Below, in pieces: positions 32,311-58,150 of a stretch of DNA of 64,000 nucleotides. Numbering within the stretch: the first letter of the stretch is position 1; every line of letters begins with the position of its first letter. The stretch spans positions 19,040 to 83,039 of the forward strand of contig JANLFM010000004.1 of NCBI GenBank assembly GCA_024655865.1, read 5' to 3'. The stretch comes from Caldisericota bacterium. Its GTDB lineage: Bacteria; Caldisericota; JANLFM01. The translations under genes and the position numbers were made by a program. The notes under the pieces were generated by a model. The model was not told the origin of the DNA. It did not search any database and was given only the letters and a program-made list of their open reading frames with translations.

Positions 32311-32946
32311 TTGAACAACGTGATTCAAGAAATGGAAAGTGCGCTTATGCGCATTAAATCTGTTTTGGGGGCCAAAATTGTCACGGACCAAAAAGGGGAG
32401 ATCGTGGAAGTTCACGTCCTGGCAACAGACCAGAGAAACCCAAAACAGGTGGTCAGGGATGTCGAGTCCACCCTGCTCGTGAAATTCGGAAGAAAAGTGG
32501 ATCACAAAAAAATCGGGGTTGTCCAGCAGAGCGAGAGGGAAGCGGAACATCCTCTGGAAGGAAGGCTGAAGTTTGTGGGGATTAGCACCATGCCCGGGGA
32601 GCAGAACTTCTTCGAAGTCATCCTTAGGGACCCCTCGGGAGTAGAGCATCCCGGACAGGCCTTCATCCGCGACCCCTTGCAGAGACTCCAGGCTATCGGG
32701 CAGGCCGCGATCACCGCCGTAAACCACTTCCTGAATCAGGAAAGGCTGCACCTCCAGGAGGTTTATGTGCTCAAGACCGTGGAACTGCCCTTCGTTGTTT
32801 CCTCGGTTCTTTACCGTGGAAAAAAGGGGAACCTGGTATTGGCCGGCGCGGCACCTGTCCGAGGAAGCGAGGAGGAAGCAGCAGTGAAGAGCGTTCTGAG
32901 CGCTATTAACCGCTTGCTCCCCAAGATCGTGGAGGGAGAAGTTTAA
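32311..32946 (+). CDS. Hypothetical protein with a two-fold internal repeat
   Basis: Long ORF with coding-like composition. I recognise no family. Confidence 0.4.
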   Translation: MNNVIQEMESALMRIKSVLGAKIVTDQKGEIVEVHVLATDQRNPKQVVRDVESTLLVKFGRKVDHKKIGVVQQSEREAEHPLEGRLKFVGISTMPGEQNFFEVILRDPSGVEHPGQAFIRDPLQRLQAIGQAAITAVNHFLNQERLHLQEVYVLKTVELPFVVSSVLYRGKKGNLVLAGAAPVRGSEEEAAVKSVLSAINRLLPKIVEGEV

Positions 32947-32997
32947 AATTTTTCGAAAAATTTACCCCTTGACCTGAATCCTCTATAATCTTTTTTC

Positions 32998-33201
32998 GGA
33001 CGGCGCATTCTGAAGCGGGAAACTCCCTTGAGCGGAGCGCTTGTTTGGAGAACAAATGAGTGCGAAAGGGGGTATCCCCATGAGACGCTGGTTAACGAGA
33101 GCTCTGTGGTTTGTAGCCACCATCGCTTCCTTGATCCTGGCATCCGGAGCGGACGTAAAGTGGGGCGGCAGGTAGCGAACGCCTGAGGGGAGTGCGCCGT
33201 C
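32998..33201 (+). ncRNA. ~205-nt structured leader closed by a perfect 9-bp long-range helix (GACGGCGCA...UGCGCCGUC) downstream of a TTTACC-17-TATAAT promoter; class unknown
   Basis: Read directly: the -10 TATAAT sits at 32984-32989. The stem halves are at 32999-33007 and 33193-33201, extendable to ~15 bp with one mismatch. Confidence 0.3.
33080..33175 (+). CDS. Candidate 31-aa single-TM micro-protein (MRRWLTRALWFVATIASLILASGADVKWGGR) inside the leader
   Basis: The RBS AAAGGGGG lies 7 nt upstream of the ATG. The core is hydrophobic and the ORF is fully enclosed by the long-range stem. Confidence 0.3.
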   Translation: MRRWLTRALWFVATIASLILASGADVKWGGR

Positions 33202-33211
33202 TAATAAAAGG

Positions 33212-34453
33212 ATGAAAAAAGAATTTCCAAAAGGCCTAAAGGTCTATCTGGCGCTGATCATCACAGGGGGTTCTGCTGCCCTCTATCTTACTTTCCCTTA
33301 CTGGCACGCAACTCTTATCTGGGATTATCTAATCTTTGCCCTCATCAGCTATTTTGCCTATATTCTTCTCGTCAAACTTCCAAAGCTCAACGCATACCTT
33401 TCCGTGGCCTCCCACATGAACTTCGCAGCACTTTTCCTCTTCGGTCCCTTCGCCATCTGGATCCCTGCTCTAACCGGGGCTCTCCCGGATAGCCTCCCCT
33501 TAAAGAAACCCTACATTTACCTCTTCAACGGAGCTCAGTTCGCCCTCTCCTACGGCCTGGCGGCCCTGACTTATTACGGCGCCGGAGGAACTGCCCTCTC
33601 TTTATCTTTTGCGGTTCCCATAAAAACCATCCTCCCCGCTCTCCTGAGCGGATTAGTTTATTCCTTAGTCAATGTCGGCCTGACTGCAGGAGCGATCTCC
33701 TTTGACCAGGGGCCTTTTGTTAAGGTTTTCTGGAACGTCATCAAGTGGGAATTCCCCAACATGCTGATCGCCGTCCCCTTCGCCCTCTTTCTGGCCTACA
33801 TCTTCACCCAGTTAGGCTATCTGGGACTGGCGATCCTCTTTTTCCCCCTGCTCGCCTCCCGCTATATCTTCCAGGCCTACATTCGTATTCAGGAAACCTA
33901 TTCCGAGACCGTCCGTGCCCTGATGGCCACGGTGGACAAAAAGTTCGGGCAGCCCGGCCGCAACCAGAAGGTCTACCAGTACGCGCTCCAGGTTAGCCAG
34001 AGTCTGGGTCTTTCCCCGGAGGAAGCTGAAATTTTAGGATATGCCAGCTACTTACGCCACATTGGATTAATAGGGATTGAAAACAGCATGCTGGAGTTCA
34101 CCCTTTCCCAGCCCATCTGGTCTTCGAGCCCCATAGTCGTTAATGCCTTACTTGCTGGCTCTCAGATCTTGGAGCGGACCGAGACTTTGAAAAGGGCCGC
34201 CCCCTTCATCCGGCTACACCATGAAAAATGGGATGGAACTGGCCCCTGGGGTTTGAAGGAGGAGCAAATTCCTCTCGGGGCGCGCATTATCTCCGCCTGT
34301 GAATTCCTGGAGGAATTAGAATACCGTGGAAGTAAAAGGGAGGAAATTTTGAAACACTTGAGGGAAAGGAGCGGAAAGCATTATGATCCCCGCGTGGTGC
34401 AGGCTCTTATTTCCCTTCTGGAAAAGGAGAGAGATGAACAGAAAACTTCTTAA
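33212..34453 (+). CDS. 7TM-receptor-fused HD-GYP-like domain protein (degenerate: HHEKWDGTGPW)
   Basis: An N-terminal polytopic domain is followed by a C-terminal HD-type domain with the LRHIG...HHEKWDG motif. Confidence 0.7.
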   Translation: MKKEFPKGLKVYLALIITGGSAALYLTFPYWHATLIWDYLIFALISYFAYILLVKLPKLNAYLSVASHMNFAALFLFGPFAIWIPALTGALPDSLPLKKPYIYLFNGAQFALSYGLAALTYYGAGGTALSLSFAVPIKTILPALLSGLVYSLVNVGLTAGAISFDQGPFVKVFWNVIKWEFPNMLIAVPFALFLAYIFTQLGYLGLAILFFPLLASRYIFQAYIRIQETYSETVRALMATVDKKFGQPGRNQKVYQYALQVSQSLGLSPEEAEILGYASYLRHIGLIGIENSMLEFTLSQPIWSSSPIVVNALLAGSQILERTETLKRAAPFIRLHHEKWDGTGPWGLKEEQIPLGARIISACEFLEELEYRGSKREEILKHLRERSGKHYDPRVVQALISLLEKERDEQKTS

Positions 34454-35705
34454 TTACCTTTTAATTCTCTCCCCGGCACTTTTAATCTCCGGGTGGTACG
34501 CATTTTCTCTTGACCCGGGCTCTTTTTTGGGGGTCGTGCCCTTAGCGGTTTTGGCTTTCCTTTTGCGTTCTCTGGAAGTCTCCTATTTTGGGGAAGTGAT
34601 TTCCCCCGCAAGCGCCGTCACCCTAACTTCCCTTTTTCTTTTCCCCGCTCCCCAGGCCCTTGTGGTTCTCTTTGCCTCTCTTCTTGGAGGCCTTGCTTTT
34701 CTCCGCTTTTCTCACATCCAAGAGGACGGTTTCCTGAAATCCATAGCCTCCGAACTGGGCGGTTTCCTTGGGGCTTTGCTCCTCTATCGCCTATATTTCT
34801 CATCCCAGTTAATTGGCATCTCGTTAAGCACGTATTCGCCATCTCTTCTCTTGGCCCTGGGGGCCGTCTTTGGGGGATATGCTCTTACCTCCAGTATCCT
34901 TTCTCTCATTAGCTCATTTGTCCTCCGCACCAACTTAAGGGATACCCTGAGAGTGCAGCTTTCTCCTTTCTATTTCGGCCTCTATTTCGTTCTGGGAGTG
35001 AGCCTGCTCCTCCTCGTCCCCACATATTCCGCCTTTGGCGTTTTGGGTTTCCTTTTGGGCTTGATTCCCCTGTGCGTATTTTTCTTCGCCTCCAAGCTCT
35101 ACTTTCACACTCAGGAGGTTTACCGTCAGTCCCTGCGCTCGCTGGTGGGAGTGATCGAAGCTATGGACCCCTACACGCACGGCCATTCCGACCGGGTGGC
35201 CCTCATCTCCCTGGAAATTGGGAAGAGGATGCCTTTATCCCAGTCAAGGTTGCAGCTTTTGGAATACGCCGCCTACTTGCACGACATGGGCAAGGTCTCC
35301 ATCGATCCCGCCATCCTGCGCAAACCGGAGGCCCTTTCCGAGGAGGAGTGGAAAATAATCAGATCCCACCCTGAGGATGGGGTAGAGATCCTGCGAAACG
35401 TGAAATTCCTCAAGCCCATCCTGCCCTGGATCGAGCATCATCATGAGAAGGCCAACGGTACCGGTTACCCCTCGGCTCTCCCCTTAAAGAAAATTCCCCT
35501 GGAAGCCCGAATTATCACCCTGGCCGATGCCTTTGACGCCATGATCTCCAATCGCCCTTATCGCCCTGCCCTGACGGTGGAGGAGGCGAAAAGGGAGATC
35601 GAGAGGAACACGGGTTCCCAGTTCGACCCCATCCTGGTGAAAAAGTTCCAGCGCCTCATAAAGAAAAAGGACTTTGTTCGGACGCTGGGCTTCCCCAAGC
35701 GGTGA
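34434..35705 (+). CDS. 7TM-receptor-fused HD-GYP c-di-GMP phosphodiesterase
   Basis: Carries HGHSDRV...YLHDMGK...HHEKANGTGYP, the canonical HD-GYP motif. The N-terminal ~250 aa are polytopic. Confidence 0.8.
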   Translation: MNRKLLNYLLILSPALLISGWYAFSLDPGSFLGVVPLAVLAFLLRSLEVSYFGEVISPASAVTLTSLFLFPAPQALVVLFASLLGGLAFLRFSHIQEDGFLKSIASELGGFLGALLLYRLYFSSQLIGISLSTYSPSLLLALGAVFGGYALTSSILSLISSFVLRTNLRDTLRVQLSPFYFGLYFVLGVSLLLLVPTYSAFGVLGFLLGLIPLCVFFFASKLYFHTQEVYRQSLRSLVGVIEAMDPYTHGHSDRVALISLEIGKRMPLSQSRLQLLEYAAYLHDMGKVSIDPAILRKPEALSEEEWKIIRSHPEDGVEILRNVKFLKPILPWIEHHHEKANGTGYPSALPLKKIPLEARIITLADAFDAMISNRPYRPALTVEEAKREIERNTGSQFDPILVKKFQRLIKKKDFVRTLGFPKR

Positions 35706-57790: not shown

Positions 57791-57929
57791 AAAGGGAAAT
57801 CCAAAAATGTATGATTGCAAGACCTGACCCTACTGGCTGGCCCTATTGGAATTCTGGAATTGTTGGATTGCAAGACCTGACCCCGTTACATGGCGTTGAC
57901 AGCCAGCCAATTATTTGCTAAAAAGGCCC

Positions 57930-58150
57930 CAAAGCGAAGAAGGGAGAGGAGTAAGCCTCGTCGCTTGCCTCAGAGAGGGGAAGTAAGGTGCGAGTTCCCT
58001 GGCAGGCAGAAGCTGAAGTCGCTCTCTGAGCTGGATGCTGAAATTAAAAGTAGGCTTTCCCGCTGGCTGCGTTAAAACCAAGAGAGCCCATTATGGGAAT
58101 TAAGGTGGTACCGCGGACCTCCGTCCTTGACGGAGGTTTTTCTTTTTAAA
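57930..58150 (+). promoter_or_regulatory. T-box riboswitch leader (Val specifier likely) with intrinsic terminator, preceded by a TTGACA-17-TAAAAA promoter at 57895-57923
   Basis: The T-box sequence AAGGTGGTACCGCGG at 58102-58116 overlaps the terminator hairpin ACCTCCGTCcttgACGGAGGT plus a T-run, which ends 18 nt before the valS ATG. The stem I arms CTCAGAGAGG and CTCTCTGAG pair. Confidence 0.75.

What the first reader, a model, noticed from the sequence alone, without database searches (positions are those of the whole stretch)
32960..33215. Structured leader with long-range 9-15 bp helix enclosing a 31-codon TM micro-ORF upstream of tandem 7TM-HD-GYP genes
Directly after a TTTACC-17-TATAAT promoter, GGACGGCGCAuuc pairs with gagUGCGCCGUC ~190 nt downstream, just before the RBS of the first HD-GYP gene. 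Inside the stem is a micro-ORF (MRRWLTRALWFVATIASLILASGADVKWGGR) with a good RBS (AAAGGGGG-7-ATG). This could be a riboswitch-like element, a translation-coupled leader-peptide attenuator, or a small membrane partner of the 7TM sensors. I matched no known riboswitch class by eye: a TPP-like segment is in the wrong order and GEMM motifs are absent.
Basis: seen in the sequence. Interest (0 to 1): 0.6.

Follow-up and report, generated by a model that had tools for sequence, protein, structure and literature searches.

The report
Conserved 31-residue membrane protein gene, structured leader
The "micro-ORF" is a real, conserved gene for a 31-residue membrane peptide that sits next to membrane-embedded c-di-GMP phosphodiesterase sensors in two bacterial phyla. 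It lies inside a conserved folded leader RNA that matches no known RNA family.

Summary

I recovered 17 orthologous loci from Caldisericota-like metagenome genomes, all upstream of the same pair of 7TM HD-GYP genes.
- **ORF:** it shows a clear coding signature. Variable columns by codon position are 15/8/27 of 30 (p=4e-6), the stop codon varies (TAG/TAA/TGA) at a fixed place, and amino-acid changes are conservative.
- **Distant homologue:** a 48-residue protein with the same "SGAxxKWGG" C-terminus lies directly upstream of a 26%-identical 7TM HD-GYP in Acetothermia, as a separate transcription unit. The protein, not the RNA, is therefore the widely conserved element.
- **RNA:** the long-range helix is kept in every locus (99.6% of cells paired), and its strands are 94-97% identical against 64% at third codon positions. 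It has no compensatory double changes. The 5'UTR consistently folds so that a conserved anti-SD masks the micro-ORF's SD.
- **Known families:** there is no Rfam, Pfam or NCBIfam match.

Best reading: a new small membrane protein that partners the MASE9 HD-GYP sensors, expressed from a clade-specific structured leader that controls translation or stability. A riboswitch or a leader-peptide attenuator is not supported.

The parts
32961..32989 (+). Sigma-70-type promoter: TTTACC, 17 nt, TATAAT
   Evidence: 10 of 12 matches. TATAAT is invariant in all leaders. It lies 8-9 nt (6 in L006) before GACGG, so the transcript should start at or 1-2 nt before the helix (inferred).
32998..33011 (+). 5' strand of long-range helix P1 (GGACGGCGCAUUCU)
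   Evidence: 12 of 14 columns are invariant, with 97% mean pairwise identity.
33012..33016 (+). Invariant junction GAAGC between P1 and the 5'UTR arm
   Evidence: 5 of 5 columns invariant, 100% identity. Function unknown.
33017..33029 (+). Anti-SD strand GGGAAACUCCCUU. It can also form a small local hairpin, GGGA/UCCC.
   Evidence: In the MFE fold of 12 of the 13 distinct 5'UTR types it pairs with 33066-33078. L007 keeps the helix despite changed sequence; for L004 the pairing was checked by eye only. RNAalifold instead chose the local hairpin.
33030..33036 (+). Conserved internal-loop sequence GAGCGGA (GAGCGRA across loci)
   Evidence: 5 of 7 columns invariant. Unpaired in the fold.
33037..33063 (+). 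Variable hairpin P3 capping the 5'UTR arm
   Evidence: every sequence variant folds into a hairpin here, although this is the least conserved 5'UTR segment (73% identity). 3 pairs carry double changes.
33066..33078 (+). SD strand AAGGGGGUAUCCC; the micro-ORF SD GGGGG is 33068-33072
   Evidence: Predicted mean unpaired probability of the SD is 0.17-0.45 at 37-70 C.
33080..33175 (+). Small-protein gene: 31 codons plus stop (MRRWLTRALWFVATIASLILASGADVKWGGR)
   Evidence: Coding signature in 15 distinct orthologues. Called as a gene in some assemblies. Distant homologue in Acetothermia.
33176..33188 (+). Spacer between the stop codon and the P1 3' strand
   Evidence: Length is held at 12-14 nt in all loci; 83% identity.
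33189..33202 (+). 3' strand of long-range helix P1 (GGAGUGCGCCGUCU)
   Evidence: 10 of 14 columns invariant, 94% identity. Its conserved core ...UGCGCCGUC ends 10-12 nt before the HD-GYP1 ATG in all loci.
33212..34453 (+). HD-GYP1: MASE9-type multi-pass membrane protein with degenerate HD-GYP motifs (RHIG and GPW in place of HDxGK and GYP)
   Evidence: Orthologues are 53-92% identical.
34383..35705 (+). HD-GYP2: multi-pass membrane protein with canonical HD-GYP motifs. The true start is probably the ATG at 34434, which overlaps the end of HD-GYP1.
   Evidence: Present after HD-GYP1 in every locus.

Best explanation
The region is the start of a three-gene operon.

- **Small protein.** The first cistron (33080-33175) encodes a real 31-residue protein. 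It has a positively charged N-terminus, one 17-residue hydrophobic span, and a conserved extracytoplasmic tail (SGA-[DE]-[VL]-[KR]-W-G-G). It most likely inserts N-in/C-out and acts within or at the membrane with the two MASE9-type 7TM HD-GYP proteins encoded next to it. One of these is degenerate and one is catalytic. The small protein would thereby modulate c-di-GMP hydrolysis, as small membrane proteins such as MgrB modulate PhoQ.
- **Leader RNA.** The mRNA around it is a clade-specific structured module. The transcript's first nucleotides pair with a segment 13 nt after the micro-ORF stop (helix P1), which closes the small gene into a ~205-nt domain. Within that domain, a conserved anti-SD (ACUCCCUU) and GGGA pair with the micro-ORF's SD and with the UCCC just before its AUG.
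- **Role of the RNA (inferred).** It limits or conditions translation of the small protein and protects the 5' end. The A-rich HD-GYP1 start region just 3' of P1 stays open.

Shown here: the coding status, the conservation of the helices, and the synteny. Inferred: membrane topology, interaction with the sensors, the transcription start site, and the regulatory role of the RNA.
For: **Coding status**
- In 15 distinct orthologues, variable columns by codon position are 15/8/27 of 30 (chi-square p=3.9e-6).
- The stop codon is TAG, TAA or TGA at the same position.
- Substitutions are conservative (F/I, V/I/A, S/T, D/E, K/R). The other two frames are full of stops or are not conserved.

**Association with the sensors**
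- All 17 loci keep the order leader, micro-ORF, HD-GYP1, HD-GYP2, although HD-GYP1 falls to 53-56% identity.
- In Acetothermia, a 7TM HD-GYP only 26% identical has a 48-residue ORF directly upstream that ends ...VLMSGATDKWGG*. The pairwise BLASTP E-value is 7e-6, and W4, R7, G23, A24 and W28 are invariant in the joint alignment.
- Galperin and Chou proposed that MASE9 binds its ligand within the membrane (bioRxiv 10.1101/2021.11.05.467447).

**RNA**
- P1 is in the MFE fold of 17 of 17 leaders. In the alignment 99.6% of cells pair, and five pairs vary on one side only, always keeping a pair.
- The three G-U pairs make the helix specific to the + strand.
- P1 strands are 94-97% identical and the junction 100%, against 64% at third codon positions.
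- The SD-masking helix plus the P3 hairpin is the MFE of the 5'UTR in 12 of 13 sequence types.
- Predicted P1 pair probability is about 0.99 up to 70 C. The micro-ORF SD is mostly paired, and the HD-GYP1 start region is 0.6-1.0 unpaired.
- The geometry is fixed: -10 box to helix 8-9 nt, stop to helix 12-14 nt, helix to ATG 10-12 nt.
Against: - There is no experimental evidence that the peptide is made, is in the membrane, or touches the HD-GYP proteins.
- The cross-phylum link rests on two lineages only.
- The RNA helices have no statistically supported covariation. P1 has 0 double changes. For the 5'UTR helices, the covariation score equals the shuffled mean. The structure therefore rests on conserved complementarity and thermodynamics.
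- Near-invariance of both P1 strands is more than pairing alone would require. This hints at an unrecognised constraint, such as a bound factor or alternative pairings.
- RNAalifold preferred a small local hairpin (GGGA/UCCC) to the SD-masking helix.
- A permanently masked SD begs for an opening mechanism that I have not identified.
Confidence: 0.55

Rival explanations
1. **Secreted signalling pro-peptide.** The 31-residue product is a Sec signal peptide (MRRWLTR / hydrophobic core / A-S-G-A) that signal peptidase I cuts after SGA. This releases a 6-8-residue peptide ([DE][VL][KR]WGG[RKH]), which the adjacent 7TM HD-GYP receptors sense from outside. The result would be a peptide-to-c-di-GMP autocrine or quorum circuit.
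For: - The S22-G23-A24 motif directly after a 14-17-residue hydrophobic core fits the -3/-1 small-residue rule (read from the sequence).
- SGA and K/R-W are the residues conserved between the two phyla.
- The gene lies immediately upstream of polytopic membrane receptor genes, as comC/comD and agrD/agrC do (from my own knowledge).
Against: - W4, R7 and W10 in the N-terminal and hydrophobic part are invariant within the clade, and W4 and R7 across phyla. That is unusual for a disposable signal peptide.
- The Acetothermia homologue has a 24-residue N-terminal extension before the hydrophobic span. This looks more like a cytoplasmic domain plus a membrane anchor.
- No exporter or processing gene is in the conserved neighbourhood.
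- No signal-peptide predictor was available.
Confidence: 0.15
2. **New riboswitch or other ligand- or protein-binding leader.** The invariant 5'UTR, closed by P1, would be an aptamer. Its ligand (for example a c-di-GMP-related nucleotide) would toggle the anti-SD/SD pairing and so control the operon.
For: - P1 strands, the GAAGC junction and the GAGCGRA loop are nearly invariant, while neutral sites have diverged to 64% identity.
- The architecture has a closing helix, a conserved junction, a variable hairpin, and an anti-SD/SD pair with a competing local hairpin.
- The element sits upstream of c-di-GMP phosphodiesterase genes.
Against: - No Rfam family matches at E<=10 in the window or E<=1 in homologues.
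- Only one locus type was found by an exact 21-mer scan of metagenomes, and there is one copy per locus and none elsewhere in the 64-kb window. Riboswitch classes normally recur in front of several genes and in many lineages.
- No covariation above controls.
- P1 encloses a translated ORF, which would be very unusual for an aptamer.
- The HD-GYP1 start region is predicted to be open regardless.
- The element is absent from the Acetothermia locus, which keeps the protein.
Confidence: 0.12
3. **Leader-peptide, translation-coupled attenuator.** Translation or stalling on the micro-ORF would remodel the RNA to control HD-GYP1/2 expression. The peptide itself would have no function after release.
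For: - The short ORF lies directly upstream of the regulated genes, with a fixed 36-38 nt stop-to-ATG distance.
- HD-GYP1 has a weak or absent SD in several relatives, for example CGGAUUGUUUCUAUG in L010 and L023. This could indicate dependence on upstream translation.
- The C-terminal W-G-G is invariant just before the stop codon in all 15 clade orthologues used in the codon alignment, though P0020 ends KWTGGR and P0023 ends KWT.
Against: - No terminator-like hairpin lies between the ORF and HD-GYP1.
- P1 begins 13 nt after the stop, which I infer is beyond the reach of a terminating ribosome. Its 5' strand is 68 nt upstream of the ORF, so translation cannot directly open it.
- The substitution pattern preserves hydrophobicity along the whole peptide, as in a membrane segment, rather than a few regulatory codons.
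- With only 31 residues the chain is still inside the ribosome at termination, so it cannot sense the membrane (my inference).
- In Acetothermia the homologue has its own promoter-like site and a terminator-like hairpin, followed by a separate promoter-like site for HD-GYP.
Confidence: 0.08
4. **Type I toxin-like module.** A small hydrophobic toxic peptide would have its mRNA locked by 5'-3' pairing and SD sequestration, as in hok or aapA1.
For: - The product is a ~30-residue hydrophobic peptide.
- A long-range helix joins the transcript's 5' end to a segment just past the ORF, and an upstream anti-SD masks the SD.
- These are the hallmarks described for aapA1 mRNA (PMC5416894, PMC6733600).
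Against: - No promoter-like site exists on the opposite strand in 15 of 16 leaders, even at a relaxed threshold.
- The locus is single-copy, strictly syntenic, and co-transcribed with downstream genes without a terminator.
- Strong purifying selection holds across relatives whose HD-GYP1 is only 53-56% identical.
- Type I toxins are typically stand-alone, multi-copy and poorly conserved (my own knowledge).
Confidence: 0.04

Closest known systems
Small membrane-protein regulators of membrane sensors (MgrB/PhoQ, SafA/PhoQ; PMC2789325, PMC8404706; review PMC12648545)
   Same: A protein under 50 residues with one hydrophobic span and a short conserved extracytoplasmic tail. It is genetically linked to a polytopic membrane signalling protein and is under purifying selection.
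   Different: - No sequence relationship; no Pfam or NCBIfam match.
- The linked sensors are HD-GYP c-di-GMP phosphodiesterases, not histidine kinases. The 2025 review of small membrane proteins does not mention c-di-GMP enzymes at all.
- The gene is the first cistron of the sensor operon rather than a regulon member.
- No interaction has been shown.
KdpF-type first-cistron hydrophobic micro-subunits (kdpFABC; my own knowledge)
   Same: A ~30-residue single-span peptide encoded as the first gene of an operon for a membrane complex.
   Different: The complex partners here are signalling proteins. No evidence exists for a stable complex, and the mRNA architecture is unlike kdp.
Type I toxin mRNAs with 5'-3' fold-back and SD sequestration (hok; aapA1: PMC5416894, PMC6733600)
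   Same: The RNA design is similar. The transcript's 5' end pairs with a segment just beyond a ~30-codon hydrophobic ORF, and an upstream anti-SD masks the SD.
   Different: No antisense promoter. The 3' strand is internal to a polycistronic mRNA rather than at a processed 3' end. The locus is single-copy, syntenic and strongly conserved.
Peptide-pheromone gene next to its polytopic receptor gene (comC-comD, agrD-agrC; my own knowledge)
   Same: A short pre-peptide gene lies immediately upstream of genes for 6-7TM membrane receptors. A possible signal-peptidase site would release a 6-8-residue C-terminal peptide.
   Different: The output domain is HD-GYP rather than a histidine kinase. No dedicated exporter or processing enzyme is nearby, and the N-terminal part is unusually conserved for a leader.
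c-di-GMP riboswitches (GEMM-I RF01051, c-di-GMP-II RF01786)
   Same: A structured leader upstream of c-di-GMP turnover genes.
   Different: No match to any Rfam model. This leader encloses a translated ORF and is restricted to a single locus type.

Membership tests
Known riboswitch / Rfam cis-regulatory families (including GEMM-I/II, TPP, cobalamin) | Match to the family covariance model | tested here: not met
   No hit inside 32990-33210 at E<=10. The only gathering-level hit in the window is a T-box at 57928-58131. No hits at E<=1 in homologous loci L006, L007 and L022.
Riboswitch (generic) | Conserved structure supported by covariation | tested here: not met
   P1: 0 pairs with double changes. 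5'UTR helices: the covariation score equals the shuffle mean, with 230 of 500 shuffles as high. The sequences may be too similar for the test to have power.
Riboswitch (generic) | Recurs upstream of several genes or across lineages | tested here: not met
   The 21-mer scan of metagenomes found only this locus type plus one chance hit in a sigma-factor gene. The covariance model found one copy per locus, none elsewhere in the window and none in the Acetothermia loci.
Riboswitch (generic) | Direct ligand binding that switches the expression platform | not testable with these tools
   Needs in-line probing, SHAPE or ITC.
Leader-peptide attenuator | ORF overlaps or abuts alternative terminator/antiterminator or RBS-masking structures that the translating ribosome can remodel | tested here: not met
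   No terminator-like site between the ORF and HD-GYP1. The P1 3' strand starts 12-14 nt after the stop. The HD-GYP1 start region is predicted to be unpaired.
Leader-peptide attenuator | Selection acts on regulatory codons or an arrest motif rather than on the peptide as a product | tested here: not met
   The whole peptide is conserved with hydrophobicity-preserving changes. The homologue in Acetothermia appears to be an independent transcription unit.
Small membrane proteins partnering membrane sensors (kind, not a sequence family) | Translated ORF of 50 residues or fewer under purifying selection | tested here: met
   Codon-position pattern 15/8/27, p=3.9e-6; stop-codon turnover at a fixed site. 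Translation itself has not been shown.
Small membrane proteins partnering membrane sensors (kind, not a sequence family) | Single hydrophobic membrane span | tested here: inconclusive
   There is a 17-residue uncharged core, ALWFVATIASLILASGA (mean Kyte-Doolittle 1.93), flanked by R7 and D25, and the N-terminus is positive. A transmembrane anchor could not be separated from a cleavable signal peptide.
Small membrane proteins partnering membrane sensors (kind, not a sequence family) | Conserved genomic linkage to the sensor | tested here: met
   17 of 17 Caldisericota-like loci plus the Acetothermia loci L021 and L022.
Small membrane proteins partnering membrane sensors (kind, not a sequence family) | Physical and functional interaction with the sensor | not testable with these tools
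   No multimer prediction or experiment was available.
Type I toxin-antitoxin | Antisense RNA antitoxin gene overlapping or adjacent to the toxin mRNA | tested here: not met
   No minus-strand promoter-like site in 32500-33700. None in 15 of 16 leaders at a relaxed 8-of-12 threshold. A trans-encoded antitoxin cannot be excluded.
Type I toxin-antitoxin | 5'-3' long-range pairing and SD sequestration in the toxin mRNA | tested here: met
   Predicted only.
Pfam / NCBIfam protein families | Profile match of the small protein | tested here: not met
   0 families at E<=1 for both the 31-residue and the 48-residue proteins.

The most novel reading that the evidence does not exclude
The 31-residue product is a signal-peptidase-processed pro-peptide. 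Its released [DE]x[KR]WGG hexa- to octapeptide is the long-sought ligand of MASE9-type 7TM HD-GYP receptors. This would be a peptide-pheromone circuit wired directly to c-di-GMP degradation in deep-branching phyla (Caldisericota-like, Acetothermia). Expression of the pro-peptide would be gated by a dedicated SD-masking, 5'-3'-closed leader RNA.
Probability: 0.12. Interest if true: 0.85.

Novelty: new variant of a known kind. Interest (0 to 1): 0.55.

Why it matters
- **An orphan sensor gets a candidate partner.** MASE9 and related 7TM sensor domains of HD-GYP phosphodiesterases have no known signal. Their describers proposed that the ligand binds within the membrane. A conserved single-span micro-protein encoded beside such sensors in two phyla is a concrete, testable candidate for that partner or ligand.
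- **It would extend a known mechanism.** Small-membrane-protein control is known for histidine kinases. If the link holds, it would also apply to c-di-GMP signalling.
- **It shows a gap in annotation.** The 31-codon gene was missed by gene callers in several of the assemblies examined, yet comparative codon analysis recovers it.
- **The leader RNA is unusual.** It combines 5'-3' closure of a micro-cistron with anti-SD masking. That design is otherwise described mainly for type I toxin mRNAs, but here it sits inside an ordinary operon.

Tried and rejected
- **Rfam.** I scanned the region at E<=10, the whole window at gathering thresholds, and three homologous loci at E<=1. Nothing matched in or near the leader.
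- **Covariation tests.** I tested P1 and the SD-masking helix plus P3. Neither rose above the shuffled controls. RNAalifold's covariation term was only -1.14 kcal/mol.
- **Other conserved helices or pseudoknots.** A systematic search found only short, equivocal candidates. Examples are UCGCUUC/GGGGCGG inside the ORF, and GGGCGG/CCGUCU competing with P1.
- **Covariance model of the 5'UTR.** Searched against the window and all 23 loci, it found no extra copies.
- **Small-protein homology searches.**
  - The word-indexed protein search returned one close relative.
  - The exhaustive HMMER search of 1.84 billion representatives returned one relative (P0020) and one spurious ankyrin hit.
  - The search with the Acetothermia 48-mer returned two close relatives.
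  - The scan of viral contigs found nothing.
- **Antisense promoter search** (type I antitoxin): none found.
- **Other motifs, checked by eye and rejected.** These were a K-turn, a CsrA site (GGA in the P3 loop), a PyrR site and a Tat signal (RR). None is conserved across the alignment.
- **Upstream 211-residue protein.** There was no Pfam, NCBIfam or PDB sequence match. The single-sequence AF2 model had low confidence (pLDDT 61). Foldseek gave only generic ferredoxin-like matches with E>0.001.
Full report
**1. Observation**

- A sigma-70-type promoter, TTTACC-17-TATAAT, occupies 32961-32989.
- Nine nucleotides after the -10 box, GGACGGCGCAUUCU (32998-33011) begins. It is complementary over 14 consecutive pairs (11 Watson-Crick, 3 G-U) to GGAGUGCGCCGUCU (33189-33202), which ends 9 nt before the ATG of the first HD-GYP gene (33212).
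- Between the two strands lies an ORF: ATG at 33080, stop at 33173-33175, product MRRWLTRALWFVATIASLILASGADVKWGGR. GGGGG lies 7 nt upstream of its ATG.
- The minimum-free-energy fold of 32990-33215 contains the helix (z = -2.7 against shuffles).
- In a single sequence, a helix of this length is only moderately unusual: 11 of 500 dinucleotide shuffles had an uninterrupted helix of at least 14 pairs.

The case therefore rests on comparative data.

**2. Context and relatives**

The downstream genes are two multi-pass-membrane HD_5/HD-GYP proteins, the first with a MASE9 match. HD-GYP1 has degenerate catalytic motifs (RHIG, GPW) and HD-GYP2 has canonical ones (HDMGK, GYP).

The window is identical to a MAG annotated as a Caldiserica bacterium.

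I obtained 17 orthologous leaders by three routes:
- a genome scan;
- exact-protein look-ups of HD-GYP1 homologues at 53-92% identity and of micro-protein hits;
- a metagenome scan for the 21-mer GACGGCGYATTCTGAAGCGGG.

All 17 sit in the same synteny: PGM, UDP-glucose dehydrogenase and archease on the minus strand, then a 211-residue unknown protein, the leader with its micro-ORF, HD-GYP1, HD-GYP2 and the pyr genes. The only unrelated 21-mer hit was a chance match inside a sigma-factor gene.

**3. The micro-ORF is a real protein-coding gene**

- Across 15 distinct orthologues, 27 of 30 third codon positions vary, against 15 first and 8 second positions (chi-square p = 3.9e-6).
- The stop codon is TAG, TAA or TGA at the same site.
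- Replacements are conservative: F/I, V/I/A, A/V, S/T, D/E, K/R/H.
- The other two frames contain stops or are not conserved.
- Length is 31-33 residues in all loci.
- The consensus is M-x-R-W-L-T-R-A-L-W-F-V-A-T-I-A-S-L-I-L-A-S-G-A-[DE]-[VL]-[KR]-W-G-G-[RKH].

The sequence shows a positive N-terminus, a 17-residue uncharged core (mean hydropathy 1.93) and a short polar tail. This fits an N-in/C-out single-span protein. It also fits a Sec signal peptide with an S-G-A cleavage site. I could not separate the two.

**4. The protein, not the RNA, recurs in another phylum**

One of the few distant hits to HD-GYP1 is P0017 from Candidatus Acetothermia. It is 26% identical, has canonical HD-GYP motifs and a sub-threshold MASE9 match. 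Directly upstream of it is a called 48-residue ORF, MKWGEYNEAAVERVTGWLGKTVGPRVLYALIILSAFVLMSGATDKWGG*.
- Its C-terminal 24 residues align without gaps to the window peptide (10 of 24 identical, pairwise E = 7e-6).
- In the joint alignment W4, R7, G23, A24 and W28 are invariant.
- Close relatives end ...SGANEKWGG and ...SGASDKWT.

In that locus the small gene has its own promoter-like site (TTGACA-17-TAAACT), an ordinary GGAGG SD and a terminator-like hairpin. A second promoter-like site precedes HD-GYP. My covariance model of the leader finds nothing there.

The gene pair "KWGG micro-protein plus 7TM HD-GYP" is therefore conserved across phyla, while the structured leader is specific to the Caldisericota-like clade. 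This argues for a function of the peptide in trans with the sensors. It argues against a pure cis-acting leader peptide.

The describers of MASE9 inferred that its ligand binds within the membrane (bioRxiv 10.1101/2021.11.05.467447). A recent review of bacterial small membrane proteins does not mention any c-di-GMP enzyme. Neither peptide matches Pfam or NCBIfam.

**5. The RNA**

*Helix P1.*
- It is present in the MFE fold of all 17 leaders.
- In the 16-sequence alignment, 99.6% of cells pair, against 29-63% for slid controls. Nine pairs never vary and five vary on one side only, always keeping a pair (C-G to U-G; U-G to and from U-A; G-U/G-C/A-U). There are no double changes.
- The G-U pairs make the helix specific to the + strand RNA.

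*Conservation by segment.*

| Segment | Mean pairwise identity |
|---|---|
| P1 5' strand | 97% |
| GAAGC junction | 100% |
| P1 3' strand | 94% |
| P3 hairpin | 73% |
| Spacer before the HD-GYP1 ATG | 76% |
| ORF third positions | 64% |

*The 5'UTR.*
- After the P1 strand, its MFE in 12 of 13 sequence types is one extended arm. GGGA-A-ACUCCCUU (33017-33029) pairs with AAGGGGGU-A-UCCC (33066-33078). That segment is the micro-ORF's SD plus the bases before its AUG. The arm is capped by the variable P3 hairpin (33037-33063).
- L007 and L023 keep the arm as a continuous GGGUAUCCCC/GGGGGUAUUC helix despite a 3-nt deletion and CCC-to-UUC changes. L004's MFE is different, although by eye the same arm can still form.
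- Statistically, however, covariation is no better than in shuffles. RNAalifold prefers the small local hairpin GGGA/UCCC. That hairpin could be a co-transcriptional intermediate or an alternative state.

*Partition-function predictions.*
- P1 pair probability is about 0.99 at 37-70 C.
- The micro-ORF SD is unpaired with probability 0.17-0.45.
- The stretch between P1 and the HD-GYP1 AUG is unpaired with probability 0.6-1.0.

*Fixed geometry.*
- TATAAT to GACGG is 8-9 nt (6 in one locus).
- Stop codon to the P1 3' strand is 12-14 nt.
- P1 to the HD-GYP1 AUG is 10-12 nt.

**6. Mechanism (shown versus inferred)**

Shown here:
- a conserved small-protein gene;
- its conserved linkage to 7TM HD-GYP genes;
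- a conserved long-range complementarity that starts at about +1 of the predicted transcript;
- a conserved anti-SD complementary to the micro-ORF SD;
- no terminator before HD-GYP1.

Inferred:
- Transcription starts at about 32996-32998, so P1 buries the 5' end. This would protect it against 5'-end-dependent decay.
- The anti-SD arm limits or conditions translation of the small protein.
- HD-GYP1 initiates independently on the open A-rich region just 3' of P1.
- The peptide inserts in the membrane and modulates the degenerate/active HD-GYP pair.

P1 begins 13 nt after the stop codon and its 5' strand lies 68 nt upstream of the AUG. Translation of the micro-ORF should therefore not open it. 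This is my inference from ribosome footprint dimensions.

Both P1 strands are nearly invariant, beyond what pairing needs. This is unexplained. It may reflect alternative pairings, for example GGGCGG in the W-G-G codons with CCGUCU, or a bound factor.

**7. Rivals**

- **Riboswitch.** The invariant junctions are suggestive. Against it: no Rfam match, a single locus type, no covariation, and an enclosed translated ORF.
- **Leader-peptide attenuator.** Disfavoured for the reasons given in sections 4 and 6.
- **Type I toxin-like module.** The RNA design resembles aapA1 and hok (PMC5416894, PMC6733600). However, no antisense promoter is present, and the locus is single-copy, syntenic and operonic.
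- **Secreted pro-peptide.** Compatible with the SGA motif. Weakened by the invariant W4, R7 and W10 and by the long N-terminal extension in Acetothermia.

**8. Verdict**

The other two are not supported.

The small protein belongs to a previously undescribed family, and the leader matches no described RNA family. The kind is known: a small membrane protein encoded beside a membrane sensor, with an SD-masking leader. The target (c-di-GMP phosphodiesterases with MASE9-type sensors) and the 5'-3'-closed micro-cistron architecture are new variants of that kind.

Interest is moderate to high for people working on c-di-GMP signalling and on small proteins. It is limited by the uncultured hosts, by there being only two lineages, and by the lack of any functional data.

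Noticed in passing
window 33212-34453 and 34383-35705: The two tandem 7TM HD-GYP genes are not equivalent. HD-GYP1 has degenerate motifs (YLRHIGLIG instead of HDxGK; HHEKWDGTGPWGL instead of ...GYP). HD-GYP2 is canonical (YLHDMGKV; HHEKANGTGYP). The tandem pair is present in all orthologous loci. P0014, a distant HD-GYP1 orthologue, also has the degenerate motifs. The arrangement suggests a regulatory plus catalytic heteromer.
   Followed up: partly
window 32311-32946 (+): A 211-residue ORF directly upstream of the promoter is conserved in synteny in the loci that extend far enough upstream. It has no Pfam, NCBIfam or PDB sequence match. A single-sequence AF2 model (pLDDT 61; N-terminal 70 residues confident) gave only generic ferredoxin-like fold matches (E>0.001).
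   Followed up: partly
L021 2185-2500 (Acetothermia, Ga0484004_000035): The 48-residue KWGG protein gene has its own promoter-like site (2185-2213) and a terminator-like hairpin (2452-2473). That hairpin overlaps a second promoter-like site, TTGATC-17-TATAAT (2460-2488), only 12 nt before the HD-GYP ATG. This implies a very short or SD-less leader for the sensor gene. A DUF5317 membrane protein gene overlaps the HD-GYP 3' end.
   Followed up: partly
L004 6619-8521 (GCA_964614945.1): In this relative only, a radical SAM/SPASM gene and a DUF1464 gene are inserted between HD-GYP2 and pyrK. Radical SAM/SPASM enzymes often modify short peptides, and some act on Lys/Trp motifs. A link to the K-W-G-G peptide is pure speculation.
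   Followed up: no
window 33203-33214 and equivalents in L010, L015, L018, L023: The HD-GYP1 start has a weak or absent SD in several relatives (UAAUAAAAAGAUG; CGGAUUGUUUCUAUG). It nevertheless lies at a fixed 10-12 nt from the end of P1. This suggests SD-independent initiation or dependence on the adjacent structure.
   Followed up: partly
window 33158-33170 versus 33197-33202: The W-G-G codons (UGGGGCGG) resemble the P1 5' strand and can pair with CCGUCU of the P1 3' strand. That is 6 bp, kept in at least 85% of sequences, and is a possible competing local hairpin. Within the ORF, GCUCU/GGAGC (codons 8-9 with 23-24) shows a U-A to G-C double change in three GC-richer sequences.
   Followed up: partly
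window 57928-58131 (+): A T-box leader scores 113 bits (gathering score 93). It is the only Rfam gathering-level hit in the 64-kb window.
   Followed up: no
window 33057-33079: An in-frame upstream ATG (33057, giving MSAKGGIPM...) exists in the window and some close relatives. It lies inside the P3 hairpin and is lost in others (ATA in L011, L016, L018 and L020; absent in L004 and L007). It is therefore not the conserved start.
   Followed up: yes
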